Source: a virus (taxonomy: Duplodnaviria; Caudoviricetes). Taken from it: a DNA stretch of 54,682 nt. The stretch spans positions 1 through 54,682 of the IMG/VR virus record IMGVR_UViG_3300029787_000061; one strand, given 5' to 3'. Of the stretch, positions 815 to 36,704 are shown piece after piece. Within the stretch, counting starts at the first letter, position 1. The number at the start of each line of letters is the position of its first letter. The notes beneath the pieces are model-generated. The model was given only the letters and a program-made list of their open reading frames with translations. It searched no databases and was not told the origin of the DNA. A program made the translations under genes and the position numbers.

Positions 815-870
815 ATTATAGCATGAACTTAGTTAATGGTGTTTCTTCGATGACAGTTTGTGTAGTGTCC
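815..870 (-). promoter_or_regulatory. sigma70-type promoter (TGcTATAAT) with upstream imperfect inverted repeat, driving the helicase
   Basis: Minus-strand TGCTATAAT at 815-823. Imperfect palindrome ATGACAGTT-TGTG-TAGTGTCC at 850-870. Confidence 0.6.
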
Positions 871-2123: not shown

Positions 2124-2146
2124 TATAAAAATTTGTTTATGCACTT

Positions 2147-20982: not shown

Positions 20983-21016
20983 TTTTTTATTTTTATTTAG
21001 TAAGTGTTGACATTAG

Positions 21017-21436
21017 TTAATCCCCAAAAACAATAGCATTGAAAATTACAGGATCAAGAGCAGTCTGAGCAGCAACATTACTATTACATATTCTAAATGA
21101 ACTTGTACTATATCCTCCAGATATACTTCTAATCATTGTCCTAACTGCTGTTGAAAGTTGGTCAGATTCTATTGCTTTCATACTTAGTGCAACTGCATAA
21201 TTTGCATTAGACATTGCACTAGAAAAAGTAACTGTATAATCACCTGTTCCGTTATCAGTAACCGATGAAACATTAAATGCACTACGAATACCTCCATTTG
21301 CAGTGGTAAAAGGAGATGTGCCAAATGTACCATCAAAATTTACCCAAGCTTTTGCCCTGCCCTGTCCAATTTGTTCTGCTGTTGATGAATTACCACCACT
21401 TGTATCTTGAATAGTTTGTACTTTAAGTGTTGACAT
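21017..21436 (-). CDS. Tail-fibre tip/accessory protein, AKAWVNF paralog 1
   Basis: MSTLKV..AKAWVNFDG..IRSAFNVSSVTDNGTGDYTVTF. Confidence 0.75.
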   Translation of the reverse strand: MSTLKVQTIQDTSGGNSSTAEQIGQGRAKAWVNFDGTFGTSPFTTANGGIRSAFNVSSVTDNGTGDYTVTFSSAMSNANYAVALSMKAIESDQLSTAVRTMIRSISGGYSTSSFRICNSNVAAQTALDPVIFNAIVFGD

Positions 21437-21438
21437 AA

Positions 21439-21870
21439 TTAACTCCCAAACATTGATAAATGTACATTTTTTTTATCCATAAACTCATTGCTACTTGTTC
21501 CTCGATGAACTTCAACTGTAACACTACCTGCAAGTATAAGCTCTTCGGATGCTCCACCCTCATGACCATCCATCAACATGAGTACTCCATGATCACCATT
21601 TGTTCCTTTCTGTCCTATTGTACCACTAACAGAATATGAATCATTAGTTGAAAAAGAGTTTGTAAAATTAACTCTATATCTTCCAACTGCTAAATCTGTT
21701 ACAGAATCAACATTAAAGCTAGATCTTATCGTTTTGGTTGTTCCTGAAGAAGTTCCATCAAAATTTACCCAAGCTTTTGCAAGTTGTCCTTTTTCCGTAC
21801 CAGAACTATTTTTAAATAGTGGTGGTGCAGCAGTATTACTTTGAATTGTGCCTGTAACTAATGTACTCAT
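21439..21870 (-). CDS. Tail-fibre tip/accessory protein, AKAWVNF paralog 2
   Basis: MSTLVT..AKAWVNFDG..IRSSFNVDSVTDLAVGRYRVNF. GGAGG Shine-Dalgarno upstream. Confidence 0.75.
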   Translation of the reverse strand: MSTLVTGTIQSNTAAPPLFKNSSGTEKGQLAKAWVNFDGTSSGTTKTIRSSFNVDSVTDLAVGRYRVNFTNSFSTNDSYSVSGTIGQKGTNGDHGVLMLMDGHEGGASEELILAGSVTVEVHRGTSSNEFMDKKNVHLSMFGS

Positions 21871-21894
21871 AATAACCTCCGTATATTATATATG

Positions 21895-24800
21895 CTATAA
21901 AATTGTGAATGTAGATCCACTATTGATTGTGAAAGTCACACCATTTGCAATTTCATAAGGACCAAAAGCTCCACCATTCTTTGCACCACTGGCAGGAAAT
22001 GTGGTTGTTACTGTTAGTGATGTCGGGTTTTGGAAGAATTTAGTTGCTTCTATAATATCACCCGTAGCAACTGATGGACTTTCTGTACCTGTTGTATCAT
22101 ACCATATATCTCCATCACAATAATTTCCACCTGTAGGTGTAGACGTGCCGATATATCTATTACCATAAGCATTACTTGTTGATCCAATTCCAATAACATT
22201 ACCAGACGCAACACTTATAGGAGGAGGACAAGTTCTTTCAGTGGTTCCAACTTTAAATTGTTTAATACTAACAGCAACACCACTTGCAGTATCTGCATTT
22301 ATCCAAGTTGGAGGAGCATCTCCATTACTTTTAAGTATCTGTCCCGATGAACCATAATTAGTTGAACCGTTGAATGCAACTGCTCCCGTTGATGTGATGC
22401 GAAGTCTTTCTTCTAATCCACTAGCATCAGATTTTTCATTTGAAATAACTAATGAAGAAGCACCATTATTTGTTGATTCTCTTATTGTATGAATTCGTGT
22501 TCCGTATCTATTATCATTGCCTGTATCAGAACTAGCTTTCAAAAAGATTCCACTTCCACCACCAGTTGTAATTGATTTTCCACCAATTGTTAAAGCAGTT
22601 ACAGGAGTACTAGTTCCAGTATGATGTATTCTAAGAATATCGTTACCAGGATCATTAGTTCCGATACCAACCTTTTCATCTACAAGTACACGACCTTCAA
22701 CTTTAACAACTGTAAGAGTTTCACTTCCTCCGATTATAAACCCATCATTAGTGCCTGGTGAAATTGATCCATCAGAGTGCTTATAAACAATATGACCAAT
22801 TTGAGATACACTAGTCTGATCACTGAAGAGTAATTTTGCTCCTTTCAAACTACCACTCAAACCTGAATCAGCACCAGTATTGGTGTCTGTTCGGATTAAC
22901 ATTCCCTTATCACTTTTAACCTCAAAGTGAACATCTTTTGGATCAGTGTCTCTTACTGAAAGTGTGCCACCAGCACTCACTCGAACTGCTGTATGACTTG
23001 TAGGATGTCCAGTAGCACCACCAACTAAAACTCTAAAATCACCAGCATTACCTGGTCTCATTGATATCTGATCGATTAATGCGGTGCCAGTTTGACCAAT
23101 CTCAATTACTTCACTACCTGTCTTTCCAATTAATTTTCTCTTACTATTTGTACTATCATTAGTGTAAATGTAATCATCCTTCTCAATCATCATCGCAACG
23201 TTAGTTGGATCATTCTCAGTACCAGAATCAACTGTTCCACCTGTGGCTATGAATGCAGATGCGGTTATAATACCAGTTGTGCTTACATTAGTTACATCTT
23301 CATATGTTAATGTTCCATCGACAGTCAGGTTACCTTGAATAGTAGTTGTTTTCTTTAACGTAATATCACTTGCATTAAAATTAGCAATTTCTTGATTATT
23401 TGCCCATATTTCAAACTGTCCATCACCATCTTGTGCAATACCAGTATCATTATCACCAATAACTAAGAAATGATCAACTGTGTTGTATAATGTTCCTGAT
23501 GTTTTTGGAGTAGCATTTACTCCAATATTACCATTAACATCAATCTCAAATCTAGGACTACCATTGGTAAAGACTTTAAATGTAGTGGCCGAACCAACAG
23601 CACTTACTTGAAATTCTTTATCGGCAACACTTATTTGTCCATAATGAGTTCCGTTATATTTTAAGTTTAGATTTGTATTATTCGCACTACCTCTATCAAA
23701 CTCTGCTACTGGATTAGCATCTCCAGTTGCTTTTAATACACCTGTAGTGAATGTTCCTGACCCAAGTGATGTATTACCACTAGAATTAGTAATCATTACT
23801 TTATCGTTACCACCTGAGGCACTTGTATCTCTACCGTCTAATAAATCTGCGCTTAAATTAGTTACTGTTGTTGTAGAAGTAACCGTAAGTGGTGCAGTTC
23901 CTGTTGTTATTGTAGATTTCAATATTGATGCACCCAATTCAGCTGTGCTAGCGTTGAAAGTTAAACTTGTATTGCTATGTGGAGTTAGATTACCTGTGCC
24001 TGATGCTTGAACAAATACAGGGAAGCAAGTAGCATCACTACTCTGATCTGTCATGGCTAATTGACTAGATGCTCCCGTTAATGTTGCAGTTATATTATCA
24101 GCGTTTAACTTTCGAACATATATTTGTCTTAGATAATTACTCGAACCTCCAAGATCTACACCATTTGAATCACTATCGTTTGCAGCAGATCCAGATGGTA
24201 GAAGATGAACTCCTGATCCAATGGTCAAAGTTGATGCTGCATTAGTTGATGATTTACCTTGTAGAAGTGGTGTTTCAAAAGCTCCTGCAGGAGCAACAAG
24301 AGCACTAACTGAGTATGCTCCTGTGATTGAAGCATTCTCACCATCTCCTTTAACTGTTATAAAAGTCGAAATAGTCGCAGTAGGAGCATCTGCATCATCT
24401 GATTGTATTACTTCAATCGCATCATTGACCTCTGCATCTGCGTCATCACTTGTTCCTCTGAATATCGCAGCATATGCATGTCTTGTTGCAGTACCACTAA
24501 ACATCCCTGCCAATTTAAACAGACCAACTTTTTGTACTGCAGTACGAAGGGTATTATCAATATCATCAGTAAATGCATCATAACTACATAGAACTCCAAT
24601 TTTGGTTCTGTCCATATTACCTATGGCAGTTGCTAGGTTAGCAACAACGGTGGCACCACCAGCGTGTGTATCATAGGTTGTTCCAGAGTCCAGTGTTAAA
24701 GAATTATCGGCATCAAAAATTAATAAGTGAAGTCCTCTATTAGTATTATTACCACCAGATATTTGATCTACACCATTTATGGTGCATTGTCTATTTGCAC

Positions 24801-27800
24801 TATTATTGAGTCCAGTTCCACGAACATAGATTTGTGAAGTGAGAAGAGTGCTATCATGAGCTCCATATCGAACATCTGTTTTAAGATTTAATGATGAAGA
24901 TTGAAGTCTGAGTGTTTCTGTTCCACTAACAGTAAATGCAAGAGTATTAACAGCAGGACTGTGTAAGTAAGTAGTATTTTCACCTATGAAGTGCATTCTG
25001 ACATCTCTATCAGTTGCAGTTCGATTAACGTCAAATGTTATTCCTAATCTATTACCATCACTTTCATATAATCTTATGGATGAATCAGCGTATAAGTCTA
25101 AGTGTCCATCTGCTCCTGTAATTTTTTCAACTGAATTTGCAGTCTCATCCAAAAATAATGTAGGAGTGTTTACCTGACCAGCAACAACTAACTTATCCGA
25201 TCCTTTAATATATGTTAACCCTGCATCTGCACCTACATTGGTTCCACCATCATTAAATAAAACTTGAGTATCACTACCTGGTGATCCGAGTGTACCAGTA
25301 ATATTGGTTGCATTAATCGTATTAAAATAACCAACATCCCATCGAGCATCAGAAGCACCAATATCCTGTCCAGTCCCACCTCTTAGTAAGTCACCTGTTG
25401 ATGTGATGCGAAGTTTTTCTGCTGCTGATTGACCACTTGCTTGAGTGAAGAAGGTCATGTATTTGGCGTTAGTACTCCCAACTTTATCTTGTGCTCTTAA
25501 ACTTACTTCACCATCTGTGGCATCTGTATGAACTGCAAATTCAGTACCTGAAACATCAACTATGAAATTATCTTGGTCATCTTGACCTTGTACAGATGTA
25601 ATACCTACTGAATTGATATGAAGTCTCAAATCGTCACTACCAGTAAATAATTTTATACCTTTTCCTGATTCTCTATTGTTAATGAAGAAATCATCATCCC
25701 CATTAAGTCCTGCTATAACACCATCACCAGATGCAGCATTCGTACCATTATCAGTAAATTGAATTCTTGTATTTGTTGAATCATGTAAATGTAGAATTGT
25801 CTGTGGATTAACAGTTCCGATACCAACTTTACCATCTGATGTGATGCGAAGTTTTTCAGACATTGGACTAGCACCGTGCTCCTGTGTCTTAAATATTAAA
25901 CCTCCACCAAAATTACCAGTACCACTTTGCTTATAACCGAGTATTGCACCTGTTCTTACTATAGCAGGATCACCACTAAAATATCTTTGTGCAAAAACAA
26001 TACCATTTCCTTCATCACCTGCATTTTCCCCTCTATTTGCTCGTACTGCTATGGCAAAATCCTGACCATAATATTCAGTGTCACTATTAGTTTCATTCCC
26101 AACTGCAATTTCTAATTTTGCATATGCAGGATTAGTTCCGATACCAACTTTACCTGCTGATGTGATGCGAAGTCTTTCTGATGGTGATGATGAACCATCT
26201 TCACTTGTTTTAAATAGGATGGCAGTTGGCATATCAGTTGATGAATTAACTGAACCATCAACCCTAGCCTCAATTGTGGCACCTTGATTATAAGAATTAC
26301 CATTATTATTATATCCCCTAAAATCAATTCTTCCTAAACTATCATCATCTACTACTATAGTATTGCTTCCAATTGAAGCATTCTTACTTCTATAGAATGT
26401 TAATCTTCCACCATTATCAGCAGTGGATGAATATGCATTGATATCTATCGCATCAGAACCAGATGTAGATACTTGTAAATTTCCAGAATGTAAAGTATTA
26501 GCATGTGCGATGACAGCTTTTCCACCAAGAATTAAATCACCTGTATTTGAGTTAAATTTAAGATTTGTATTTGTATGTGGTAATTGAGCATTGGTAGCAG
26601 CTTGAGCAAAAACAAGAAAACACTCAGTATCAGTAGTATGATCTGTTAATGTTAAATTAGCAGTAGTTACTGCATTTGTAATTGTACCAGTAATTTGTCC
26701 ATCTATTGTAGCCGCCTTTAAAGTTCCAACAGCTAGTGTTGTAGTGTTATTTGTGAGTGCGTTTGCTCCAGTTGGATTATCAGTTCCGATTCCGACATCT
26801 CCATCACCTATAAGATACATTACATCTGTCTGTAATGTATTATTACCACCAACGGATCCTTTATGTACACTAAATTTAAGATAATTAGAACTATCAGTTG
26901 CGTGATGGTAACTATAAATTGAATGATATCTTATATCAGATTGCGGATGATCTAGTCTACCAAATCTTATATCCTCTCCTTCTGTATTATATGCTTCTGT
27001 TCCTAATCTTAAAGTAGGATATTCACTACCATCACCCCAAACATCAAGGGCTCCTTGTGGAATTACAGTTCCGATACCAACTTTACCATCTGATGTGATG
27101 CGAAGTCTTTCATTATCTCCATTGGTGTAGAATCGCATATAATCACCATTATTATGGTATTGAATTCTACCTTGTGTGGAACTAGCACTATCACCAAATA
27201 CTATATTTGTATTACCTGTGGTAGTATTTGATTCAAGTGCTAATGTAGGATTATCTTTTTGAAGATGAAGACTATGACCTGGAGTGTTAGTTCCAAAACC
27301 AACAGCACCAGTATGGTCAATGACCATATGTGCTGTGAAGGTATTTACATCAGAAACGTTTGTGCTTCCAACTCCAACAACAAATCCGTTATTATCATTA
27401 TTATTCGAATCATATATTAAATTTAAACCAGAGATTGATGCAAGAGTTGTAAAATTACCACCACTACCAAAAGGAGGTACATTCTGGTCATTCAAATGTA
27501 AGAACGAACCTGCATATGGGTCATTCGATCTACCAACATATTGAACATTTTGCACCGCCATCGTAGCAGCACCTGATCCTGATATTCTTGATATTCCTGT
27601 AATCGCAGTTGAATTGTCACCAACAATGTTACCATTTGCGTTTATGTTGGTAGTGAATGTTGCTGTTTCTGAAACATTTAAGATATCTAAATCTGTTGTA
27701 CCATCTACATCTAGATTACCACCTATGTCAACGTTTCCATCTGTATTCAGAGAACCAGTAACAGGTCCAAAAATTTGTCTTGCTGTTAGAATACCGACCG

Positions 27801-30504
27801 CCAGTGTTGCGGTATTTGCAGAAGTGACCGCATTTACTCCAGTTGGATTAAAGGTTCCAATACCAACATCACCATCTGATGTGATGCGAAGTCTTTCTGT
27901 TTGTACAGCATCGAACGCAGAAGTGTAGAATGCTAGACCAACTTTTCTACTATACCCAAGATTATCCTCAGAAACTCCATATATTGCTGCAGATTTTTGA
28001 GGATCATCTATGAGTCCAAAGGTTGCGTTATTTGGATCATTTGCACCAGTAAATTGAATACCAAATCTAGCACCAGCATTAGTTGTTGATGCAGCATTTT
28101 CACCAAAAGGCATTCGAACAATAATAGAATTATTGACTGCATTTGCATTTCCAGAAGAATGTTCTCCTGTGTTAGTGACTGGTCGAACTAATATACTATT
28201 ACCAACAACATCTAATTGTCTTTGACCCTCTGCAGCACTACCAATACTAACAGAACCAATGCCAGAAGAAATGCGAAGTTTTTCAGAAAAAGATGATGCA
28301 GAATGAACACTAAAAATAAGTGGTTCATCATCATATGAATATAATATGCTTCCAAAACTATTCGATGCCTGAAGTGCCATCTTTTTCGTTCCAGCATTGT
28401 ACAATGAGATTGTAGATTCATTAGAAGCATCATTGACTTGGAGATTCGTTGTTGGATTATCAGTTCCGATACCGACATTACCACTTGTTCCTTTGATAGT
28501 TATTCTTCTTGTTGCTACAGATGCTCCAGCAGTATAGAAATGAATACCACCATTATCACTTCCTTCATTTGTACCTATTTCAATTCTTGAATGATTATTA
28601 TTACCACTTGTACTTTGAAGATGTAATGAATTCGATGCATTATCTTCTCCATATATTTTTCCACCTGAAAGAATTAAATCTCCTGTTGAGTTGATGCGAA
28701 GTTTTTCTGTACCACCAGGTCTAAATACGAAATCATCACTTATTCCTGATGTAGTGAGCAATACACCAGGATCTGAACCACCAAGTTGCACACTAAGTTC
28801 TCCAGAGTTACCAGAGGTTCTTTTAAGAACAAGTAAATTTGTCTGTGCAGCATCTGCTATTTCTAATTTTCCTGTAGTAGGATTATCAGTTCCGATACCA
28901 ACTTTACCATTAAATGTGGAAGTTGCATTAACGGTCAAAGTATCACCAGAAGCATCACCTAAAGTTGTATTTCCATTTACGGTTAAATTATCTTGTATGG
29001 TTAGACTACCAGTTGGAGTAATTGTTCCTTCTATATTTGCATAAATTGTATTAGCAGTTACAATACCAACGGCTAGTGTTGCAGTGTTATTTGTGAGTGC
29101 GTTTGCTCCAGTTGGATTATTAGTTCCGATACCAACGTCACCACCCGATGTGATGCGAAATCTTTCAGATACTGCACCATCAGTAGTTGAAGAACCATTT
29201 GCTTTAGTTACAAAAACAAGTTCACCACCAGTGACAGTGCTATTATATTGATTATGAACTATTAAAGCAGCAGTACCGAATGAACCATTATAATCTTTTG
29301 TGGCATTGTAAGTTGTTCCATCAACAGTCCAAGTACCACCACAAGATAGTATAGTTGAAATAGTAGCACCGTGAACAGTCTGATTTAAGTAACCATGCCA
29401 GTTTGTATCATCTGATATAAATTTAAAGTTTGGAGTTGCATCAGATGGAGATTTAGAGAATAAAGTTCCTCCTGATTCGATGCGAAGTCTTTCTTGTACT
29501 CCATTTGCATCATCAGGAGTTGTTGAAAATATCAAACGACCAGGCATATCATCATCGCCTGGTACTCCATCAACTTCTGCTCTTATTTCTGCTGCATTGG
29601 TAAATGTATCACCATCCCAAGCACTAAAAGATATTTGTCCTATATCATCATCATCTTGAGCAGCTGCAATGGAAGCAATCGTTCCTCTTGCGTGTTGAAG
29701 ATTCAATCGTGAAGGATGAGCATCTCCAAATCTTGTCATTACAAAAGCAGCTTCAGAATCTGATTCTATTTGAAGAGATCCACTATAACCAGAAGTTCCA
29801 GTTCTTGTTGTTCTGTTAGTTATGTTTCCAATTAAAACTCGACCATCTGCGTCTATGGTAAATCTTTGTTTAGAATTACCGCTAGTATTTTTGGTAAAGA
29901 GTTGCAAAACTCCACCACCAGAAGATTCTGCTGCTTTTATTTGACATATATCTGCAGCATTATTTCCTTTAAAATCAATGTGAGGATTATTATTTGTTCT
30001 ATTAAAAGAGATTCTTGTTGTACCATCCGTAACATCTAATTTTGCTGTTGGTGCAGTGGAATTTATACCAACTTTACCATCCTTATAAACTAAACCTGTG
30101 CTATCAACCTCAACACCATCATAACCATCAGTTGCACTACCAAAATGAATATAATGAGTTCCTGAACCTGATGTATCATCAGTTATGTCAATAGTATCTG
30201 CTTTACTAATTGAAACACCAGTATCAATCGTTCCTTTAAACACACCATGATATTCTTGTGCATCAACTCTTCCCCTATAACTTGCTGAAAAAGCTAATGT
30301 ACTACTATTATTAAAAATTGATATTGCTTTATTTGTATCTGTTTCCTGAGTAGAAGTTGCACTAACTGCGATTCCAGTGGGATCTCCTGTACTAAAAATT
30401 TCAAGATCATACCTTGGGGTGGTTTGACCGATACCTATTTTATCTGCATTTACTATGACTCTACTATCATCTATGATAGTTGAGCCTGATATTTTAATTG
30501 CCAT
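21895..30504 (-). CDS. Giant modular long tail-fibre protein (2869 aa)
   Basis: More than 10 modules joined by E(R/K)LRITSxGxVGIGT, with an internal ILEI/GG-like domain. ATAAATA late promoter at 30540-30546. Confidence 0.85.
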   Translation of the reverse strand: MAIKISGSTIIDDSRVIVNADKIGIGQTTPRYDLEIFSTGDPTGIAVSATSTQETDTNKAISIFNNSSTLAFSASYRGRVDAQEYHGVFKGTIDTGVSISKADTIDITDDTSGSGTHYIHFGSATDGYDGVEVDSTGLVYKDGKVGINSTAPTAKLDVTDGTTRISFNRTNNNPHIDFKGNNAADICQIKAAESSGGGVLQLFTKNTSGNSKQRFTIDADGRVLIGNITNRTTRTGTSGYSGSLQIESDSEAAFVMTRFGDAHPSRLNLQHARGTIASIAAAQDDDDIGQISFSAWDGDTFTNAAEIRAEVDGVPGDDDMPGRLIFSTTPDDANGVQERLRIESGGTLFSKSPSDATPNFKFISDDTNWHGYLNQTVHGATISTILSCGGTWTVDGTTYNATKDYNGSFGTAALIVHNQYNSTVTGGELVFVTKANGSSTTDGAVSERFRITSGGDVGIGTNNPTGANALTNNTATLAVGIVTANTIYANIEGTITPTGSLTIQDNLTVNGNTTLGDASGDTLTVNATSTFNGKVGIGTDNPTTGKLEIADAAQTNLLVLKRTSGNSGELSVQLGGSDPGVLLTTSGISDDFVFRPGGTEKLRINSTGDLILSGGKIYGEDNASNSLHLQSTSGNNNHSRIEIGTNEGSDNGGIHFYTAGASVATRRITIKGTSGNVGIGTDNPTTNLQVNDASNESTISLYNAGTKKMALQASNSFGSILYSYDDEPLIFSVHSASSFSEKLRISSGIGSVSIGSAAEGQRQLDVVGNSILVRPVTNTGEHSSGNANAVNNSIIVRMPFGENAASTTNAGARFGIQFTGANDPNNATFGLIDDPQKSAAIYGVSEDNLGYSRKVGLAFYTSAFDAVQTERLRITSDGDVGIGTFNPTGVNAVTSANTATLAVGILTARQIFGPVTGSLNTDGNVDIGGNLDVDGTTDLDILNVSETATFTTNINANGNIVGDNSTAITGISRISGSGAATMAVQNVQYVGRSNDPYAGSFLHLNDQNVPPFGSGGNFTTLASISGLNLIYDSNNNDNNGFVVGVGSTNVSDVNTFTAHMVIDHTGAVGFGTNTPGHSLHLQKDNPTLALESNTTTGNTNIVFGDSASSTQGRIQYHNNGDYMRFYTNGDNERLRITSDGKVGIGTVIPQGALDVWGDGSEYPTLRLGTEAYNTEGEDIRFGRLDHPQSDIRYHSIYSYHHATDSSNYLKFSVHKGSVGGNNTLQTDVMYLIGDGDVGIGTDNPTGANALTNNTTTLAVGTLKAATIDGQITGTITNAVTTANLTLTDHTTDTECFLVFAQAATNAQLPHTNTNLKFNSNTGDLILGGKAVIAHANTLHSGNLQVSTSGSDAIDINAYSSTADNGGRLTFYRSKNASIGSNTIVVDDDSLGRIDFRGYNNNGNSYNQGATIEARVDGSVNSSTDMPTAILFKTSEDGSSSPSERLRITSAGKVGIGTNPAYAKLEIAVGNETNSDTEYYGQDFAIAVRANRGENAGDEGNGIVFAQRYFSGDPAIVRTGAILGYKQSGTGNFGGGLIFKTQEHGASPMSEKLRITSDGKVGIGTVNPQTILHLHDSTNTRIQFTDNGTNAASGDGVIAGLNGDDDFFINNRESGKGIKLFTGSDDLRLHINSVGITSVQGQDDQDNFIVDVSGTEFAVHTDATDGEVSLRAQDKVGSTNAKYMTFFTQASGQSAAEKLRITSTGDLLRGGTGQDIGASDARWDVGYFNTINATNITGTLGSPGSDTQVLFNDGGTNVGADAGLTYIKGSDKLVVAGQVNTPTLFLDETANSVEKITGADGHLDLYADSSIRLYESDGNRLGITFDVNRTATDRDVRMHFIGENTTYLHSPAVNTLAFTVSGTETLRLQSSSLNLKTDVRYGAHDSTLLTSQIYVRGTGLNNSANRQCTINGVDQISGGNNTNRGLHLLIFDADNSLTLDSGTTYDTHAGGATVVANLATAIGNMDRTKIGVLCSYDAFTDDIDNTLRTAVQKVGLFKLAGMFSGTATRHAYAAIFRGTSDDADAEVNDAIEVIQSDDADAPTATISTFITVKGDGENASITGAYSVSALVAPAGAFETPLLQGKSSTNAASTLTIGSGVHLLPSGSAANDSDSNGVDLGGSSNYLRQIYVRKLNADNITATLTGASSQLAMTDQSSDATCFPVFVQASGTGNLTPHSNTSLTFNASTAELGASILKSTITTGTAPLTVTSTTTVTNLSADLLDGRDTSASGGNDKVMITNSSGNTSLGSGTFTTGVLKATGDANPVAEFDRGSANNTNLNLKYNGTHYGQISVADKEFQVSAVGSATTFKVFTNGSPRFEIDVNGNIGVNATPKTSGTLYNTVDHFLVIGDNDTGIAQDGDGQFEIWANNQEIANFNASDITLKKTTTIQGNLTVDGTLTYEDVTNVSTTGIITASAFIATGGTVDSGTENDPTNVAMMIEKDDYIYTNDSTNSKRKLIGKTGSEVIEIGQTGTALIDQISMRPGNAGDFRVLVGGATGHPTSHTAVRVSAGGTLSVRDTDPKDVHFEVKSDKGMLIRTDTNTGADSGLSGSLKGAKLLFSDQTSVSQIGHIVYKHSDGSISPGTNDGFIIGGSETLTVVKVEGRVLVDEKVGIGTNDPGNDILRIHHTGTSTPVTALTIGGKSITTGGGSGIFLKASSDTGNDNRYGTRIHTIRESTNNGASSLVISNEKSDASGLEERLRITSTGAVAFNGSTNYGSSGQILKSNGDAPPTWINADTASGVAVSIKQFKVGTTERTCPPPISVASGNVIGIGSTSNAYGNRYIGTSTPTGGNYCDGDIWYDTTGTESPSVATGDIIEATKFFQNPTSLTVTTTFPASGAKNGGAFGPYEIANGVTFTINSGSTFTIL

Positions 30505-33500
30505 CTACCGTCTTCGTGTTTCCACTGGGTAATTTCTTTTATTTATCAATGAGACCTCTCAATTCGTCAATTTGTTTCTGTTGGTCTTTTACGACCTCAA
30601 TCAATACTCCAATCAATCCATTATAATTGACTGATTTAGTGTCTTCACCACTCACAATCTCTGGTAGTACTTCCAGAACATTATCTGCAATTACACCAAG
30701 TGATGGTTCATTTGTTTTTTTCCAATCAAATGACACACCATCAATTTTTTTAATCTTTTCAATTGGATTCTCAATGACTTGAATATTTGTTTTATGTCTA
30801 CGATCTGATAATGAATCAAAGTTGGTTGCTGCAACAGTTCCGTTTACCTCTAATTCATATGAAGGTGTTGAATCTTTGATTCCAACTTTTCCATCCTGAA
30901 GAACTGTGATTGCCTCAAACTGAGTTCCCTGTTGATTATCTGCAAAAAGTGAAAAACTATTATCATTTCCACTTCGTGATCCCATATATTTCAATGAGAA
31001 TCCAAATTGAGAATTATTAGATTCCCCATCATGATTATCAGTTTCACCATCAACTCTTAATAAAGTAACATCATTACTACCACCACCAGGACCAATACGT
31101 ATTGCTGTTCCACCATCTTCACTTACAAGTCGAATTGTTGATGATGATTCACCCAAATCTAAATTATATGCTGGTATTGTGGTTCCGATTCCAACTTTTC
31201 CATCATGATGTACCACCATTTTCTCTGTTAATGTAGCACCATCACCAGCACTTGTTATGAAAAATAATGATGTTGGCATGTCATATTCAGCAGAAGCAGT
31301 TACTGTGTCAGTTACTCTAGCATCAATTCTTGCTCCAACGTTTGCCAAATCTGGTGTATTTGTTGAGGAATCAGCTCCCTGAAAATTGATTCGTCCAAGA
31401 GTGTCACCCTTTTTAACTGTAGAATTTGCAGGAATACCACCATTCCCTACAATTGAACCTCTTGACTTACCAAAATTTAATTCAGGTGGTGCATCATCAT
31501 TAGAAAATCTGATAACATCAACTCCTGTAGAATCACCTGCACCAACAACTTGAATTAGTTTAGTAGAATAACCTACGACACCAATCATCTTAACTTCTGT
31601 ATTCACTCCAACAAGAACTCTATCTTGGAAATTAACATTATCATTAAATGTCGAAACCCCTGATACTCTTATACCTGTAGAATTGATTACATCAATACCA
31701 CCACCAGTTACATTGATACCACTTTGAGCTGTGATAACTCCAACCGCATCGATATTTGTTACATCTTCGTATGTTAAAACACCAGTTACTTCAAGGTTAC
31801 CAGTGACTTTTGCACCACCAGAATTGATACGGAATTTTTCAGTTGTATTTCCAAATATTAAATCATCTCCACTAATTGATATATTTGCTTCTTCCGTACC
31901 ATCTTGAAAGAAGTTGATTAGATTTCCATCATTACCAGTTCGATTTATTTCAAGAGGTGTTCCACTTGCTCTTGTTATATTAACAGAATCATCCTTTCTT
32001 GCTGTAAATCCTGCATTTGCTCTATTGAAAGCAGCACCAGTTGTTGTTACATCACCATCTGATGTGATGCGAAGTCTTTCTGCTGTTGCTGTTACATCAT
32101 AAACACGGAAGGCATCTGTTGCTCCATCGACTTGTAAATCATACTCACGAGCATCATTTTTCAATCTTAAGGTTGGGTATGAGTTGGTTGCAGTGGATTC
32201 AATTTTTGCCTTTACAGTTGAAGCGGTACTTTCTAAATGTAATAATTCATCTGGATCATCAGTTCCAATACCAACTTTACCATCTGAATCAATAACTAAT
32301 TTTTCAACTGCATTTACAGAAAATTTTAACTCATTTTCAGAATGATCATAAACTATTCCTCCTCTCTTTCTATTGTCTCCTGAATTTCCATCTGCAAAAT
32401 ATATTTGTCCTAAAGTTCCATCACTATAGATGGTCATTCCACGACTACCACCACCATCACCAACAACAAATTTATTTGTAAGAAAATCGTTAGGAAGTGA
32501 TCCACCTATTCCAACATCACCAAAGGTTGAAACACCAACAAATGTACTAACACCTGTTACCTTTAAATTTTCAAAAGTTAAATCCCCTTGATCATCGTTT
32601 ATATTTCCAAAAATTTGTTTTGCTGTTAAAATACCAACTGCTAATGTTGCACTATTACTCACAACAGCGCTGCTGCCAGTAGGATTATTAGTTCCAATAC
32701 CAACGTCACCAGATGATGTTAATCTAAATCTTTCTGTTGGAACAATATCTTGTGTATTTCCAACAGAAGCTTGTGGATTAGTAAATATTTTATATGTTCC
32801 TCCAGCATATTCATGCATTTGAGATCCACTATACTTACCCTGTGTGTATCCATATGCTGATGCAGAGTATCTGTAAACTTTGAGATTATGAGTAAGTGCA
32901 TGATGCCTAGCTAATGAATTTTCAAATTCAAAAACTTGCAACGCTCTATCGTCTGTAGCATTATTTTGATCTATTCTAATTGCTTCTGATACACCAAAAG
33001 TAGGAAGTGGATTTGGTTTAATTGTTAATTTTCCACCAGTTCCTATCGCAACTGTACCATTAGAGTCGATACGAAATTTTTCTCCACCATCAGCTGTTGC
33101 AGAAAATAAAGTTGAGGTACTGCTTGCAGTTGATACAGTCAAACCATGATGAGTCGAACCCGTTCCTGTATTAGTAAACGATCCCACAAAATTTCCAGTC
33201 GCAATTCCAACACCTGATCCATTACCTTTTACAGTAAAAGTGTTATCTGGATCTTCAGTTCCGATACCTATATTACCAGTTTTTCCCTTGATGACCATAC
33301 GTTTGGCTTTTTCCGTATCGACATTACCATCACCAGTCGTGTAGAAATGAATTCCTCCTCCATCATTACCTGAAATTATACCTATATCAATTTGAGATCT
33401 ATTAGAATTACCATCTGTGCTTTGAATTGCAAAATAATTTACAGAAGTATTATTTCCAGATAATGTACTTCCTCTAAGGTTTACTCCATTTGAGTTAATA

Positions 33501-34642
33501 AGAAGTCTCTCGGTATTATTAGCTTCAAACACAATCTCCTGACCAGATCCACCATTTGAATTGGTGGTAGGAAACTGCATCCGAGTGCCTTCATCACCTA
33601 TGTGAAAAATTGATTTACCAATTCCTATACCCGAATTAAAATCAACATCATTATAAAAAGTTGATATTCCTGTTACAGTTATACCTACACCAAGAACACT
33701 AATTCCATTTTGTGCAGTTATAACACCAACTGCATCAATATTTGTTACATTATCGTATGTTAGATTACCATTAACTGTTAAGTTACCAGTGATAGTTACA
33801 AGTCCATCTGATGCGATGCGAACTTTTTCTGCAGGAGATCCATTTGCTGCAGTTGCAACATTAAATGTTAATGCAGCATCATCTGTTGCTACACTAACAG
33901 GCCACTTATCACTTCCATTACCTCTTGTATGATATAACTCTAGAGTTGCAGGTTGGTTTGCAGCACCTGATTCAACTCTTATATAAGGTGTTGTTGATTT
34001 TACATGTAAATTTCTTTCAGGATTTGTAGTTCCGATACCAACATCACCTGTTGATAAAATCGTAATTTTATCCGTTGCCTTTGTAGTTCCAAATCCACCA
34101 AGTCCAATATGAAAATCTCCTACTCTGTCAAATGTTGTATAACCGTGATGCCAATTAGTTAATCCTATATTACGAGTAATATATTGAACTCCTGATCCTT
34201 GATATGTTCCTGAAGGATTTTCACCCTGCAAACCAATGGTCGCATCATCATAGTTATAATTAACATTATCAACAAAATCTTTTGCACCAAACAGTGCAAC
34301 TATACCCCTACTATTTGCACCTGTGACATGTAAAGGTGCTTCAATATTATTAGTAGTTCCGATACCTACAAAACCATCTGATGTGATGCGAAGTCTTTCT
34401 TCTGCTGCGGTGTGGAACCGCATTGAATCATCATCATGTGCATATTTAATATTTCCTCTATAAGTGGCATCGCCCGTTATCCCATCGGCAAAGAGTATAT
34501 TACTATCACTACTAGTTCCTGCAGCAATAGTTAATCCAGTATTCCCAGTGCTATGCAATGCTAATTTTACTGCACCACCATAATTTGATGGATCATCAGT
34601 TCCGATACCAACTAGTCCTGCTGATGTGATGCGAAGTCTTTC
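22391..34642 (-). repeat. Dispersed in-frame 20-bp repeat GAAAGACTTCGCATCACATC (~14 copies)
   Basis: Exact at 22391, 26159, 27092, 27878, 32061, 34380, 34623. One mismatch at 25400, 25838, 29147. Partial at 28271, 28692, 29479, 33810. Confidence 0.95.
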
Positions 34643-36703
34643 TTTGAATGCTGAACTTGTTGAAGCAGCAAATACTAAATCCTTACTTTCAAAAGATGCT
34701 ATATTTGTTTGTGTTCCTTCTGCATTTATTGATGCAACTTTTGTACCACTATCTCTAAATTGAATTGCTGGATTGGTAGCATGGTCAAGAGTTAAAAGAC
34801 TACCTGGATTAGTGGTTCCAATACCAACTGATTCTAAAAAATTACCACCACCAGAAGACTTTAAAAAACCTATCTGAATTGCAGAGTTTCCTTCTCGTTT
34901 TGCTGTTCCATCAGAAACAAAGTTCCATGTTCCACCCGTTCCATAATTTCCAGCATCACTATGCCAAATATGATCTATGTTACCTGAGTTTCCAACCTCA
35001 GCGTTAGAGATCAACATATTATTATTAAAATTAATATCTCCTTTGACATCTAATTTATGTGTTGGATTAGTGGTTCCAATACCAACACTGCCTCCAGTAA
35101 CATGAATGCCACTTCTTGCAGTTATTAATCCTACAGAATCAATATTAGTTACATCTTCGTATGTTAATGTACCACCAATTGATACATTTTTTTGAAATGA
35201 TACATTTTGTTCAAAAGTGGCTATTCCAGTAACAAGTAAATTTTTTGTTGATGTAATTCCAGAAACATTTAATATATCAAGATCTATTGTCTCCTGAATG
35301 GAAGTGACCTTTCCAAATATTTGATTTGCAGTGAGTATACCAACGGCAAGAACCTTTGTATTGTTTTCAAGAGCAGATTCAATATTCGATGCTGTTGGAT
35401 TTGTAGTTCCGATACCAACATCACCAGATGCAAAAATGTCAGTTGTTTCTAATTGTCCAAAAACTGTAACTCCATAACCAGTGGTTCTTAATTTTTCATT
35501 TCCATCATTAAATAATCTTACTTCAGGAACACCACCTGGAGCATATGCTGTGATTGCTGCTTTACTTGCATCTGCACTTTTGAGATCAAAAGTATTAGTT
35601 AATAAAACATAATTAGCACCACCATTAAATTCATGTCTAAAATCTCTGGTATCTGGTTTATAAAACAAATTGACAGTAGTGTTCCCAATACCGAATGTTA
35701 ATTTTGCATTATCATCAAATATTAAGTCATCAATTGATTTATCAAATTTAATATTATGGTTATTACCAGCAAATATTACATCATCATTGAATGTTGAGAC
35801 ACCAGCAACATTTAAATTATCTAATTCAGTATGTCCGTCTACATCTAGACTATCATCTATCTTAACATCACCAGAGAAAGTTGTAACACCAGTAAATCGT
35901 GAGTCACCAAGAACATCTAATAATCTATCGGGTTGAGTTGAACCTATACCAATTCGACTATTAGTTGAATCAAAAACAAAATTGCTTGCACCACCAACTA
36001 AACCTGTATCATCATGAAACTGAATTTGTGTTATCGTTCCACCTGCACCAGATGTTACAGATCCTGAATCAGTCCACTTAACTCCACCTGTTGCAGTTTT
36101 TACTAAAAGATCACCAGTAGTACCTGGTTGATTATCCTCTCCATATATTGTTTTATCTAATTTTACATTTCCTACGACATGCAAATTCTGTGTAGGTAAT
36201 GAAGTTCCGATACCAACTGAACCTATACCTATTGTATTATCAAATACAAAATTTGGAGAAGCTCCAAATTGATCATCAATATTATTAAATAAAATTTGAA
36301 AATTGTCACCTGGTGGTGCAACTGTAACTGTAACTGCAATACCTGCGCCCCCATCAGGATTTATAGAACCTACAACAGTGACAGCAGTTCCAACAAAATT
36401 TATATCCGTGATACTACTGACACCTAAATTTGGATTTGCATCTGTTCTCGGAACAACTAATCCTCCATCTCTGACAGTTATAGATCCTGGTTGTATTCCT
36501 CCTCCAATTGGAACCCAAAACCTTTCACCTGGATTACTAATTAATGAAACAATTTGATATTGCTGACCACCAGGAATTGCATCTAGTTCTGGAGGATCAC
36601 CTAAATTAGGTTCTGCCTGATCTAATCCAAGGTATTGATACCTATCAGTTGTTAATGAACCTTGTGGAGTTCTTTTGACCCTTCCACTTAAATACTTTGG
36701 CAT
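30539..36703 (-). CDS. Giant modular tail-fibre protein with C-terminal Peptidase_S74 chaperone (2054 aa)
   Basis: ERLRITS/VGIGT modules and TYEDVTNID repeats. C-terminal SDRRHKTNI..GVSFDWK..GVIA..VNYNGLIGVLIEVVKDQQKQIDEL. Confidence 0.85.
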   Translation of the reverse strand: MPKYLSGRVKRTPQGSLTTDRYQYLGLDQAEPNLGDPPELDAIPGGQQYQIVSLISNPGERFWVPIGGGIQPGSITVRDGGLVVPRTDANPNLGVSSITDINFVGTAVTVVGSINPDGGAGIAVTVTVAPPGDNFQILFNNIDDQFGASPNFVFDNTIGIGSVGIGTSLPTQNLHVVGNVKLDKTIYGEDNQPGTTGDLLVKTATGGVKWTDSGSVTSGAGGTITQIQFHDDTGLVGGASNFVFDSTNSRIGIGSTQPDRLLDVLGDSRFTGVTTFSGDVKIDDSLDVDGHTELDNLNVAGVSTFNDDVIFAGNNHNIKFDKSIDDLIFDDNAKLTFGIGNTTVNLFYKPDTRDFRHEFNGGANYVLLTNTFDLKSADASKAAITAYAPGGVPEVRLFNDGNEKLRTTGYGVTVFGQLETTDIFASGDVGIGTTNPTASNIESALENNTKVLAVGILTANQIFGKVTSIQETIDLDILNVSGITSTKNLLVTGIATFEQNVSFQKNVSIGGTLTYEDVTNIDSVGLITARSGIHVTGGSVGIGTTNPTHKLDVKGDINFNNNMLISNAEVGNSGNIDHIWHSDAGNYGTGGTWNFVSDGTAKREGNSAIQIGFLKSSGGGNFLESVGIGTTNPGSLLTLDHATNPAIQFRDSGTKVASINAEGTQTNIASFESKDLVFAASTSSAFKERLRITSAGLVGIGTDDPSNYGGAVKLALHSTGNTGLTIAAGTSSDSNILFADGITGDATYRGNIKYAHDDDSMRFHTAAEERLRITSDGFVGIGTTNNIEAPLHVTGANSRGIVALFGAKDFVDNVNYNYDDATIGLQGENPSGTYQGSGVQYITRNIGLTNWHHGYTTFDRVGDFHIGLGGFGTTKATDKITILSTGDVGIGTTNPERNLHVKSTTPYIRVESGAANQPATLELYHTRGNGSDKWPVSVATDDAALTFNVATAANGSPAEKVRIASDGLVTITGNLTVNGNLTYDNVTNIDAVGVITAQNGISVLGVGITVTGISTFYNDVDFNSGIGIGKSIFHIGDEGTRMQFPTTNSNGGSGQEIVFEANNTERLLINSNGVNLRGSTLSGNNTSVNYFAIQSTDGNSNRSQIDIGIISGNDGGGIHFYTTGDGNVDTEKAKRMVIKGKTGNIGIGTEDPDNTFTVKGNGSGVGIATGNFVGSFTNTGTGSTHHGLTVSTASSTSTLFSATADGGEKFRIDSNGTVAIGTGGKLTIKPNPLPTFGVSEAIRIDQNNATDDRALQVFEFENSLARHHALTHNLKVYRYSASAYGYTQGKYSGSQMHEYAGGTYKIFTNPQASVGNTQDIVPTERFRLTSSGDVGIGTNNPTGSSAVVSNSATLAVGILTAKQIFGNINDDQGDLTFENLKVTGVSTFVGVSTFGDVGIGGSLPNDFLTNKFVVGDGGGSRGMTIYSDGTLGQIYFADGNSGDNRKRGGIVYDHSENELKFSVNAVEKLVIDSDGKVGIGTDDPDELLHLESTASTVKAKIESTATNSYPTLRLKNDAREYDLQVDGATDAFRVYDVTATAERLRITSDGDVTTTGAAFNRANAGFTARKDDSVNITRASGTPLEINRTGNDGNLINFFQDGTEEANISISGDDLIFGNTTEKFRINSGGAKVTGNLEVTGVLTYEDVTNIDAVGVITAQSGINVTGGGIDVINSTGIRVSGVSTFNDNVNFQDRVLVGVNTEVKMIGVVGYSTKLIQVVGAGDSTGVDVIRFSNDDAPPELNFGKSRGSIVGNGGIPANSTVKKGDTLGRINFQGADSSTNTPDLANVGARIDARVTDTVTASAEYDMPTSLFFITSAGDGATLTEKMVVHHDGKVGIGTTIPAYNLDLGESSSTIRLVSEDGGTAIRIGPGGGSNDVTLLRVDGETDNHDGESNNSQFGFSLKYMGSRSGNDNSFSLFADNQQGTQFEAITVLQDGKVGIKDSTPSYELEVNGTVAATNFDSLSDRRHKTNIQVIENPIEKIKKIDGVSFDWKKTNEPSLGVIADNVLEVLPEIVSGEDTKSVNYNGLIGVLIEVVKDQQKQIDELRGLIDK

Positions 36704-36704
36704 A

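What the first reader, a model, noticed from the sequence alone, without database searches (positions are those of the whole stretch)
22391..34642. Nucleotide-conserved junction repeat punctuating two giant tail-fibre genes: candidate in-frame module-shuffling system
Seen: the coding-strand 20-mer GAA AGA CTT CGC ATC ACA TC (ERLRITS) occurs exactly 7 times (22391, 26159, 27092, 27878, 32061, 34380, 34623), with one mismatch 3 times (25400, 25838, 29147) and partially 4 times (28271, 28692, 29479, 33810). It spans two different genes, while the modules between copies are largely dissimilar. All 14 copies use CGC for the second Arg and 13 use ATC for Ile. Both are C-ending codons in a very AT-rich sequence, and a similar peptide near 32715-32734 uses AGA TTT AGA TTA. 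Spacings are irregular multiples of 3 (243, 321, 438, 786, 933 bp). Inference: protein selection alone would not fix synonymous sites, so the motif behaves like a repeat-spacer array inside a CDS. It could be a recombination or gene-conversion joint that lets ~80-300-aa fibre modules be added, lost or swapped in frame, diversifying host range. Conserved-motif-bounded exchange is known for T-even distal fibres, but I know of no description of this element. No recombinase gene is visible in the window.
Basis: partly seen in the sequence, partly recalled or inferred. Interest (0 to 1): 0.85.

Follow-up and report, generated by a model that had tools for sequence, protein, structure and literature searches.

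The report
Same-spelled joints shuffle cyanophage fibre modules
Two giant tail-fibre genes of a marine T4-like cyanophage are built from unrelated blocks joined by one short motif always written in the same rare codons, and related phages have swapped, lost or moved blocks exactly at these joints.

Summary
The 20-mer occurs 7 times exactly and 6 times with 1-3 mismatches, all on the minus strand, against 0 expected. All 14 CGC codons of the two fibre genes sit at the motif's second Arg, whereas CGC is 4 of 352 Arg codons in the other 24 ORFs. Flanks of the copies are unrelated, with mean 32-33% identity, so the copies are not recent duplications.

Relatives share single modules at 66-93% identity, and the homology always stops at a joint:
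- 33 of 33 anchored comparisons are one-sided.
- 0 of 78 nearby HSPs span a canonical joint.

Cultured TIM5-like cyanophages show the same behaviour with a different spelling (CGT ATA). One cassette breakpoint between two 99%-identical isolates lies inside the motif. Other phages encode the same peptide with freely varying codons.

My reading is a homologous-recombination joint placed on a structural motif of S74-type trimeric fibres. It is a new variant of the conserved-motif recombination known from T-even fibres. The effect on host range is untested. The scan reached the same reading earlier on another genome (e1-5711118).

The parts
21895..30504 (-). Giant fibre gene 1 (2869 aa) with 10 canonical joints. 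The C-terminal 164-aa domain follows the last joint.
   Evidence: ORF, translation. PHROG tail fibre families phrog_9942 (5e-69) and phrog_18345 (1e-62). No Pfam family.
30539..36703 (-). Giant fibre gene 2 (2054 aa) with 4 canonical joints and a C-terminal intramolecular chaperone.
   Evidence: PHROG tail fibre families. Pfam Peptidase_S74 at aa 1966-2017, E 1.9e-13.
30653..30808 (-). Peptidase_S74 chaperone domain of gene 2.
   Evidence: coordinates converted from aa 1966-2017.
22391..22410 (-). Canonical joint (exact 20-mer), the last joint before the C-terminal domain of gene 1.
   Evidence: L227: 0.91 identity downstream and 0.27 upstream. L028: 0.89 upstream and 0.22 downstream.
25400..25419 (-). 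Canonical joint (1 mismatch, EKLRITS).
   Evidence: The L024 HSP 25392-25626 ends here.
25838..25857 (-). Canonical joint (1 mismatch, EKLRITS). It shares a 42-nt exact run with the copy at 27111.
26159..26178 (-). Canonical joint (exact).
   Evidence: Upstream-only homology in L024, L028, L051 and L213 (0.82-0.91 upstream, 0.28-0.31 downstream).
27092..27111 (-). Canonical joint (exact).
   Evidence: The L072 HSP 26788-27111 starts exactly at the motif.
27878..27897 (-). Canonical joint (exact).
   Evidence: One-sided homology in both directions with different loci.
28265..28284 (-). Canonical-core joint (GAA AAA CTT CGC ATT TCT TCT).
28688..28707 (-). Joint with 3 mismatches (EKLRINS); keeps CTT CGC ATC.
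   Evidence: L069 upstream-only, 0.93 against 0.34.
29147..29166 (-). Canonical joint (1 mismatch, ERFRITS).
   Evidence: Downstream-only homology in L014, L064 and L213.
29474..29493 (-). Joint with 2 mismatches (ERLRIES).
   Evidence: Upstream-only homology in 5 loci.
32061..32080 (-). Canonical joint (exact).
   Evidence: The L028 HSP 31453-32082 ends at it, and the next syntenic HSP resumes at 32252.
33810..33829 (-). Joint with 3 mismatches (EKVRIAS); keeps CGC ATC.
   Evidence: L059 upstream-only, 0.93 against 0.40.
34380..34399 (-). Canonical joint (exact), lower bound of an 81-aa module.
   Evidence: The module 34349-34609 is found in L028 at 6677-6937, inside the homologue of gene 1.
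34623..34642 (-). Canonical joint (exact), upper bound of the same module.
   Evidence: L072 upstream-only (0.90 against 0.37) and L036 downstream-only (0.88 against 0.34).
31820..33511 (-). Stretch holding 5 degenerate copies of the peptide with other codons. Their first bases are at 33511, 33082, 32734, 32305 and 31840. The canonical joint at 32061-32080 also lies inside this stretch. A sixth degenerate copy lies at 24898-24918.
   Evidence: Three of them (33511, 32734, 31840) are spanned by L028 homology, unlike any canonical joint.

Best explanation
The window is the baseplate and tail-fibre region of an AT-rich marine T4-like cyanomyovirus. Its two giant fibre proteins are chains of unrelated modules. 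Each module ends in the peptide E[RK]LRITS.G.VGIGT, a structural motif of S74-type trimeric beta-helix fibres.

In this lineage the DNA that encodes the motif is kept letter-identical, including the rare codons CGC and ATC. The copies therefore form 20-42-nt islands of exact homology, all in the same frame and on the same strand.

I infer that general homologous recombination uses these islands as crossover points. It would act between copies within a gene, between the two genes, and between co-infecting phages. The results would be in-frame insertion, loss, replacement and re-ordering of modules. The same exchanges, with short gene-conversion tracts, would keep the spelling uniform. Copies that drift out of the spelling stop recombining and become ordinary sequence.

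Shown here: the codon freezing, the unrelated flanks, the one-sided homology at every canonical joint, the moved and replaced modules in relatives and cultured isolates, and the lineage-specific spellings.

Inferred: that crossovers happen in the island rather than merely next to it, that the phage's own recombination machinery does it, and that the outcome changes host range.
For: 1. Codon freezing. 14 of 14 copies use CGC, 13 of 14 use ATC and 12 of 12 Leu use CTT. Background is 1%, 10% and 23%. All 14 CGC codons of the two genes lie at this one position. Within the copies, non-synonymous changes (R to K in 5 copies, L to F, L to V, T to E/N/S/A) outnumber synonymous ones in the first five codons.

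2. Sharp island. Conservation starts at position 0 and flanks are at random level. There are no long duplications.

3. Homology adequate for pairing. 27 of 91 copy pairs share at least 20 exact nt, with a maximum of 42. Of the 40 pairs between the two genes, 14 share at least 20 nt.

4. Breakpoints.
- HSP ends fall at the joint block in 18 of 48 cases against 7% expected, P 6e-10.
- 33 of 33 motif-anchored pairs with a homologous flank are one-sided: 21 upstream only, 12 downstream only, 0 both.
- 0 of 78 nearby HSPs span a canonical joint, whereas 3 of 7 degenerate copies are spanned.
- The C-terminal domain, searched without the motif, is joined to unrelated upstream modules at the motif in L227 to L229.

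5. Moved modules. The module 34349-34609 of gene 2 lies in the gene-1 homologue of L028. The modules 26131-26505 and 22390-22760 lie in reverse order there.

6. Cultured isolates, which carry no metagenome-assembly risk. Four TIM5-like phages carry 33 copies, with CGT in 33 of 33 and ATA in 31 of 33. S-TIM5 and S-TIM61 are 99.9% and 99.0% identical apart from a cassette of about 1.1-1.2 kb. Its left breakpoint is inside the motif and its right one directly after a motif. In S-TIM5 against S-TIM66, 5 of 14 internal HSP ends lie within 0 to +60 nt of a motif start.

7. The spelling is arbitrary but uniform.
- Codons agree in 0.78 of within-locus comparisons against 0.41 between loci of similar GC.
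- Several phages encode the same peptide with freely mixed codons.
- The exact 20-mer is in at least 115 viral stretches, with 156 of 159 copies in open frames.

8. The window's own junctions at 22410, 25419, 29493, 33829 and 34642 are bridged by contigs of runs X2 or X4.
Against: - No recombination event was observed directly. Everything rests on comparing finished sequences.
- Most relatives are metagenome contigs fetched because they contain the 20-mer, so HSPs reaching the motif are partly favoured by the sampling.
- In the motif-independent subset (loci L116 and above) only 4 HSPs qualified, and 2 of 8 ends at joints is not significant (P 0.19).
- Loci are not independent. Two of the 21 upstream-only pairs are the same contigs fetched twice.
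- About 60-70% of HSP ends lie away from the motif, so other breakpoints exist.
- Selection for foldable chimeras would also place surviving breakpoints at module borders, whatever the DNA mechanism.
- Across AT-rich phages in general, the second Arg prefers CGN (44 of 53) while the first prefers AGR (37 of 53). Part of the CGC signal may therefore be inherited history rather than homogenisation.
- X2 and X4 may come from the sample or campaign the window was assembled from.
- Any effect on host range is untested.
Confidence: 0.7

Rival explanations
1. The motif is only a structural domain border. Modules are exchanged by any recombination, and only chimeras broken at the border survive. The frozen codons come from codon-level selection at a critical peptide (translation accuracy or speed) or from shared ancestry, not from recombination.
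For: The peptide is a structural feature of S74-type fibres. The sequence aligns on the motif to solved Bdellovibrio MAT fibres (8OND E 0.0031, 8OML E 0.053). The capping-loop consensus V-G-G/N-pi-x-x-P-x-x-x-L is described in passages read from PMC10769870. ATC is also favoured in the separate VGIGT blocks. The CGN preference at the second Arg is widespread among AT-rich phages (44 of 53).
Against: Accuracy selection gives modest codon shifts, not 14 of 14 for a 1% codon. Two lineages fix different synonymous codons for the same residues, CGC ATC ACA against CGT ATA ACT. Other phages mix codons freely for the same peptide. One isolate breakpoint lies inside the motif's identical letters. No tRNA gene is in the window.
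Confidence: 0.17
2. The 20-mer is a sequence-specific nucleic-acid signal, such as a protein-binding site, an RNA element or a nuclease or modification target. It is conserved for that function and sits in the motif by coincidence.
For: Strict letter conservation with a sharp 5' edge. The exact 20-mer is present in at least 115 viral stretches.
Against: A different spelling does the same job in TIM5-like phages, and many phages have none. A specific recognition sequence does not predict this. No Rfam family matches 21000-37700. 156 of 159 exact copies in other contigs are in the ERLRITS frame of long open frames, so the element never occurs outside this coding context.
Confidence: 0.05
3. A site-specific recombination system, of the shufflon or Cin/Gin/Min invertase type or an integrase, acts on the repeats.
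For: Short repeats inside the variable part of fibre genes are how shufflons and phage invertase systems are organised (recalled knowledge).
Against: All 13 copies are direct repeats and none is inverted. No invertase or integrase family appeared among the 20 other ORFs and 2 fibre genes scanned with PHROGs. Breakpoints are seen between different phages, not as inversions. Only this 54.7-kb contig is held, so the rest of the genome was not examined.
Confidence: 0.03
4. The mosaic pattern is an artefact of metagenome assembly, with chimeric contigs formed at shared repeats.
For: Most relatives are metagenome contigs. Short-word contigs of public runs break and cross-join at the joint blocks (joints with sides of 20-27 letters).
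Against: The same pattern holds between four cultured, fully sequenced isolates. Five of the window's canonical junctions are bridged by contigs of other runs. The codon freezing inside the window does not depend on assembly of other contigs.
Confidence: 0.05

Closest known systems
Recombination between conserved motifs in T-even distal tail-fibre and adhesin genes (gp37 and gp38). Tetart et al. 1998 was seen only as a citation in PMC1079782 and PMC3157838. Passages of Trojet et al. 2011 (PMC3157838) were read.
   Same: Short conserved motifs inside host-recognition genes of T4-type phages flank variable segments. [quoted passage not shown]
   Different: The motif differs in peptide and fold context. 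Here it is repeated 14 times across two genes of 2000-2900 aa rather than a few times in one adhesin. It is frozen at synonymous sites in rare codons, has lineage-specific spellings, and is shared among marine phages of several families. The passages I read do not mention synonymous-site freezing: 'nucleotide level' has 0 occurrences and 'codon' has 1, which is unrelated. In the T-even case host-range change was shown by crosses; here it was not.
S74-chaperone trimeric beta-helix fibres: phage K1F endosialidase stalk, T5 L-shaped fibre, Bdellovibrio MAT fibres (PMC10769870, passages read).
   Same: Gene 2 ends in Peptidase_S74. The VGIGT..P...L part of the joint fits the published capping-loop consensus. 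The ER[LM]RI.S.G.VGIGT stretch aligns to solved MAT fibres. MAT fibres are described as mosaic, with possible 'tip swapping'.
   Different: In the passages I read, that work treats protein structure. Its two uses of 'recombination' concern strain construction. Nothing there concerns DNA-level identity of the motif.
Shufflons and phage invertase systems (R64 Rci; Mu Gin, P1 Cin, p15B Min). Recalled, not read here.
   Same: Short DNA repeats inside fibre or pilus-tip genes allow alternative C-terminal segments.
   Different: Those systems use inverted repeats and a dedicated site-specific recombinase and switch within one genome. Here all copies are direct, no such enzyme was found in the window, and the exchanges seen are between genomes.
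Linker or boundary sequences between modules in lambdoid phages, and PeSL cassettes in T4-type genomes. Botstein 1980 and Arbiol 2010 were seen only in the reference list of PMC3157838; the rest is recalled.
   Same: Short conserved DNA at module borders serves as homology for exchange between otherwise dissimilar phages.
   Different: Those lie between genes. This one lies inside reading frames and must also encode a structural peptide in frame.

Membership tests
Conserved-motif homologous recombination in T4-type tail-fibre genes (Tetart/Krisch type) | Short conserved motifs inside fibre or adhesin genes, flanked by variable segments | tested here: met
   14 copies with unrelated flanks.
Conserved-motif homologous recombination in T4-type tail-fibre genes (Tetart/Krisch type) | Natural chimeras whose breakpoints lie in or next to the motifs | tested here: met
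   metagenome relatives; cultured isolates.
Conserved-motif homologous recombination in T4-type tail-fibre genes (Tetart/Krisch type) | Crosses yield recombinants at the motifs with changed host range | not testable with these tools
   Needs phage crosses.
Conserved-motif homologous recombination in T4-type tail-fibre genes (Tetart/Krisch type) | The same motifs as in T-even gp37/gp38 (His boxes, glycine-rich motifs) | not tested
   I did not compare with T-even sequences. From recall the peptide is a different one.
S74-type trimeric beta-helix fibres | C-terminal Peptidase_S74 intramolecular chaperone | tested here: met
   Gene 2: PF13884, E 1.9e-13. Gene 1 has no Pfam family, so this is met for one of the two genes.
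S74-type trimeric beta-helix fibres | Capping-loop motif V-G-G/N-pi-x-x-P-x-x-x-L | tested here: met
   For example VGIGTTNPTHKL and VGIGTTNPERNL in gene 2, against the consensus in PMC10769870. This is a match by eye to a published consensus.
S74-type trimeric beta-helix fibres | Trimeric beta-helix fold | not tested
   No structure was predicted. There is only weak sequence similarity to solved fibres (8OND E 0.0031).
Shufflon / invertase switch | Crossover sites in inverted orientation | tested here: not met
   0 of 13 copies lie on the other strand.
Shufflon / invertase switch | Adjacent site-specific recombinase gene | tested here: not met
   None among the 22 ORFs scanned. Only the 54.7-kb contig is held.
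Diversity-generating retroelement | Template and variable repeat pair, and a reverse transcriptase | tested here: not met
   No long near-identical repeat pair; the longest are 120-135 nt at 64-76%. No reverse transcriptase hit.
CRISPR-like repeat-spacer array | Non-coding, regularly spaced repeats with short spacers | tested here: not met
   The copies are in-frame coding sequence with spacings of 243 to about 3000 nt. No Rfam hit.

The most novel reading that the evidence does not exclude
The spelling of the joint acts as a compatibility code. Marine phages that write the joint the same way form one pool that can trade fibre modules, across virus families and perhaps across hosts. Phages with another spelling form a separate pool. 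Rare crossovers in the shared first 14 letters move modules between pools.

Three observations hint at this:
- The S-TIM61 and S-TIM66 joints are hybrids, CGT AT then C ACA TC.
- A module is shared at 75.6% identity between a TIM5-like isolate and this T4-like window.
- The 45-nt block matches at 78-89% in T4-like, TIM5-like and podovirus cyanophages and in Pelagibacter phages.

If so, the frozen codons are maintained because lineages that keep them evolve host recognition faster.
Probability: 0.3. Interest if true: 0.8.

Novelty: new variant of a known kind. Interest (0 to 1): 0.6.

Why it matters
Host range of marine cyanophages shapes the mortality of Prochlorococcus and Synechococcus, yet how their huge fibre genes diversify is poorly understood. 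A defined joint that can be read from the DNA offers three things:
- a way to cut these giant proteins into exchangeable units;
- a way to predict which phages can trade units, namely those with the same spelling;
- a direct experiment, in which the joint is recoded synonymously and the exchange is measured.

It is also a clear natural case where synonymous sites are fixed by recombination rather than by the protein. Analyses of codon usage and dN/dS on phage structural genes should take this into account.

Tried and rejected
Searches that gave little or nothing:
- Megablast of the whole fibre region against 50,697 phage records found only one 66-nt match in 3 records, so no cultured close relative is available.
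- Rfam found nothing in 21000-37700. There are no tRNA genes in the window.
- Pfam found nothing for gene 1.
- The search for related loci with the C-terminal domain returned only 8 loci, 3 of them informative.
- The motif-independent subset of loci gave too few HSPs for the breakpoint statistic: 4 HSPs, 2 of 8 ends, P 0.19.

Sequencing runs:
- Only short-word contigs were on offer, no raw or long reads.
- The many 'joints' between joint blocks have sides of only 20-27 letters, and the tool warns that such joints often come from repeats or other organisms. I do not count them as evidence of rearrangement.
- Parts of the stretch without cover in X6 and X7 are not interpreted.
- Listed pieces do not bridge the joints at 25857, 26178, 27111, 27897, 28284, 28707, 29166, 32080 and 34399. 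2321 pieces were not shown, so this says nothing either way.

Literature. I found no description of this motif or of frozen codons at cyanophage fibre joints in these searches:
- cyanophage / tail fiber / recombination / conserved motif / mosaic;
- S-TIM61 / S-TIM5 / tail fiber;
- phage / tail fiber / synonymous / nucleotide identity / domain shuffling / linker;
- the peptide letters VGIGT, ERLRI, ERMRI, LRITS;
- cyanophage / tail fiber / homologous recombination / hypervariable / domain swapping.
For these I saw only listings and abstract starts. In PMC10087341, 'recombination' and 'motif' have 0 occurrences. Subscription journals and supplementary files were not searchable, so a description may exist there.

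Considered and rejected: shufflon or invertase, DGR and a CRISPR-like array (see the membership tests), and recent whole-module duplication.

Not done: structure prediction, complex prediction, the large protein-database searches, and a formal comparison with T-even His boxes.


Full report
WHAT IS THERE

The window is a 54,682-nt contig with 34.6% G+C, and it is all that is held of its genome. PHROG scans identify a baseplate hub with lysozyme (45020-47335), a baseplate hub (51435-52154), a tail tube (52269-52940), a tail-tube cap (53800-54681) and several fibre proteins, all typical of T4-like myoviruses. The nearest cultured matches are marine cyanophages.

The finding covers two adjacent minus-strand ORFs, 21895-30504 (2869 aa) and 30539-36703 (2054 aa). 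Both match PHROG tail-fibre families. The second ends in a Peptidase_S74 intramolecular chaperone.

- The 20-mer occurs 7 times exactly and 6 times with 1-3 mismatches. All copies are on the minus strand, and none is expected by chance. A 14th copy with the same core lies at 28265-28284.
- All copies are in frame as E[RK][LFV]RI.S, mostly followed by .G.VGIGT.
- Of 517 Arg codons in 26 ORFs, 18 are CGC. Fourteen of these are in the two fibre genes, and all 14 sit at the second Arg of the motif.
- Against the other 24 ORFs as background, 14/14 CGC, 13/14 ATC and 12/12 CTT have probabilities of 6e-28, 1e-12 and 2e-8.
- Inside the copies, amino-acid changes are tolerated (R/K, L/F/V, T/E/N/S/A) while the synonymous positions of CTT CGC ATC hardly move.
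- Six further copies of the peptide use other codons and have diverged peptides. The protein therefore does not force the letters.

NOT DUPLICATIONS

Conservation begins abruptly at the first base of the motif. Ninety-nucleotide flanks of the 91 copy pairs are 32-33% identical on average, with a maximum of 44%. The only other repeated DNA in the region is the VGIGT block (22 copies) and a few 120-135-nt stretches at 64-76%. Exact runs shared between copies reach 42 nt. Twenty-seven of 91 pairs share at least 20 nt, including 14 of the 40 pairs between the two genes.

RELATIVES BREAK AT THE JOINTS

These have G+C of 0.33-0.42, and 156 of 159 copies are in long open frames.

I ran blastn of the fibre region against all fetched loci. 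It gives a patchwork of modules at 75-95% identity.

- Ends of HSPs of at least 200 nt and 85% identity fall in the joint block in 18 of 48 cases, against 7% expected.
- I anchored every motif-like site of the loci on each window joint. Thirty-three pairs have a homologous 90-nt flank: 21 upstream only, 12 downstream only, none on both sides. Two of the 21 are contigs fetched twice.
- No HSP spans any of the 14 canonical joints with 60 nt on both sides, out of 78 HSPs lying within 300 nt of a joint. Three of 7 degenerate copies are spanned.
- A search with the C-terminal domain alone, which excludes the motif, found L227. It is 91% identical downstream of joint 22410 and 27% upstream, with the joint letters kept.
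- In L028, from a 210-kb viral contig, the 81-aa module 34349-34609 of gene 2 sits in the homologue of gene 1. Two modules of gene 1 are in reverse order there.

CULTURED PHAGES SHOW THE SAME WITH ANOTHER SPELLING

The 45-nt joint block matches cultured T4-like, TIM5-like and podovirus cyanophages, and Pelagibacter phages, at 78-89%. The four TIM5-like isolates carry 33 copies written GAA AGA CTT CGT ATA ACT TCT, with CGT in 33/33 and ATA in 31/33.

S-TIM5 and S-TIM61 are 99.9% identical over 12.6 kb and 99.0% over 14.3 kb. Between these blocks lies a replaced cassette. Its left breakpoint is inside the motif, where identity ends after GAAAGACTTCGTAT. Its right breakpoint directly follows a motif copy. 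The S-TIM61 joint continues with C ACA TC, the spelling of the present window. Part of that cassette is 75.6% identical to window 30876-31185.

S-TIM66 and S-TIM54 add further module gains and losses bounded by joints. In S-TIM5 against S-TIM66, 5 of 14 internal HSP ends lie within 60 nt after a motif start.

THE SPELLING IS ARBITRARY BUT UNIFORM

An unbiased degenerate scan gave 88 matches in 80 loci with G+C of 0.31-0.60. It shows that synonymous sites vary across phages but fall into recurrent spellings. Copies in one locus agree in codon in 78% of comparisons, against 41% between loci of like G+C. Several loci mix codons freely for the same peptide.

This argues against a specific nucleic-acid signal and against codon optimisation. 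It argues for a process that needs identity as such.

One general bias remains. In AT-rich loci the first Arg is AGR in 37 of 53 matches and the second is CGN in 44 of 53. My inference is that the first Arg toggles with Lys (AAA to AGA), while the invariant second Arg keeps an older CGN codon.

WHAT THE PEPTIDE IS

The stretch ER[LM]RI.S.G.VGIGT aligns to solved Bdellovibrio MAT fibres (8OND E 0.0031, 8OML E 0.053). The VGIGT..P...L half fits the capping-loop consensus of S74-type trimeric beta-helix fibres described in PMC10769870 (passages read). The joint is thus a structurally equivalent point in every module, which would make in-frame exchange tolerable. I infer this; I predicted no structure.

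MECHANISM AND RIVALS

I conclude that the joints are islands of exact homology at which general homologous recombination exchanges modules. This happens within and between the two genes and between co-infecting phages, and the same process keeps the islands uniform (confidence 0.7).

- T4-type phages recombine efficiently (stated in the conclusion passage of PMC3157838).
- That a few tens of base pairs suffice is recalled knowledge, not checked here.
- A fragment of an SF2 helicase lies at 2-793. No recombinase is in the window.

The rivals, scored in their own section, are:
- structural border plus codon selection (0.17);
- a sequence-specific signal (0.05);
- a site-specific recombinase (0.03);
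- an assembly artefact (0.05).

WEAKNESSES

- No event was observed directly.
- Most relatives were fetched through the motif and are metagenome contigs that are not independent of each other.
- The motif-independent subset was too small.
- Most HSP ends lie elsewhere.
- The public runs offered only short contigs. These confirm five of the window's junctions in runs that may share its origin, and otherwise give only unreliable joints.

COMPARISON WITH WHAT IS KNOWN

The principle is established for T-even gp37/gp38: recombination in or near conserved motifs of fibre and adhesin genes. Passages of PMC3157838 were read. Tetart 1998 was seen only as a citation.

Several things are new here:
- the motif itself;
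- its multiplicity across two giant genes;
- the freezing of rare synonymous codons;
- the lineage-specific spellings;
- the spread across marine phage families.

Five literature searches found no description; supplements and subscription journals were out of reach. An earlier agent of this scan reached the same reading on another genome (e1-5711118). I tested it independently here.

Verdict: real, a new variant of a known kind, interest 0.6.

Noticed in passing
window 816-2144 (minus strand): One 442-aa ORF combines an N-terminal EcoRI-family endonuclease domain (Pfam PF02963, aa 26-179, E 4e-13) with a C-terminal DNA methyltransferase (phrog_799, aa 219-418). A fused restriction-modification protein would be unusual in a lytic cyanophage.
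   Followed up: partly
window 2-793 (minus strand, runs off the contig): N-terminal part of an SF2 helicase (Pfam ResIII and DEAD; PHROG DNA helicase / Holliday-junction branch-migration helicase). It may be the UvsW-type recombination helicase of T4-like phages, but I did not verify this.
   Followed up: partly
loci L116-L191: Across AT-rich phages that carry the peptide, the first Arg is mostly AGR (37 of 53) and the second mostly CGN (44 of 53), Fisher P 6e-8. This position-specific split of codon families is wider than this lineage.
   Followed up: partly
window 30876-31185 and L236 (S-TIM61) about 13470-13777: A fibre module just upstream of the S74 chaperone is 75.6% identical over 311 nt between this T4-like window and a cultured TIM5-like cyanophage of a different genus. 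This suggests module sharing across families.
   Followed up: partly
window 35114-35179: This is the only megablast match of the fibre region to cultured phages: 66 nt at 90.9% to S-SSM7 and S-SSM6a fibre genes. It lies in a second repeated block (LTYEDVTNI...-type, repeat families D10 and D13), which may be another conserved joint.
   Followed up: no
window 2739-3839, 14806-15429: A tryptophan-halogenase-like protein (phrog_2928) and a 2OG-Fe(II) oxygenase (phrog_81) lie among the fibre genes.
   Followed up: no
window 21895-36703, runs X2, X4, X6, X7: Summed contig depth in marine metagenomes peaks in the bins that hold joint blocks. In X7, for example, it is 3193 at 25847-26340 against single digits in some neighbouring bins. 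This fits the joint letters being shared by many different phages in the sample.
   Followed up: no
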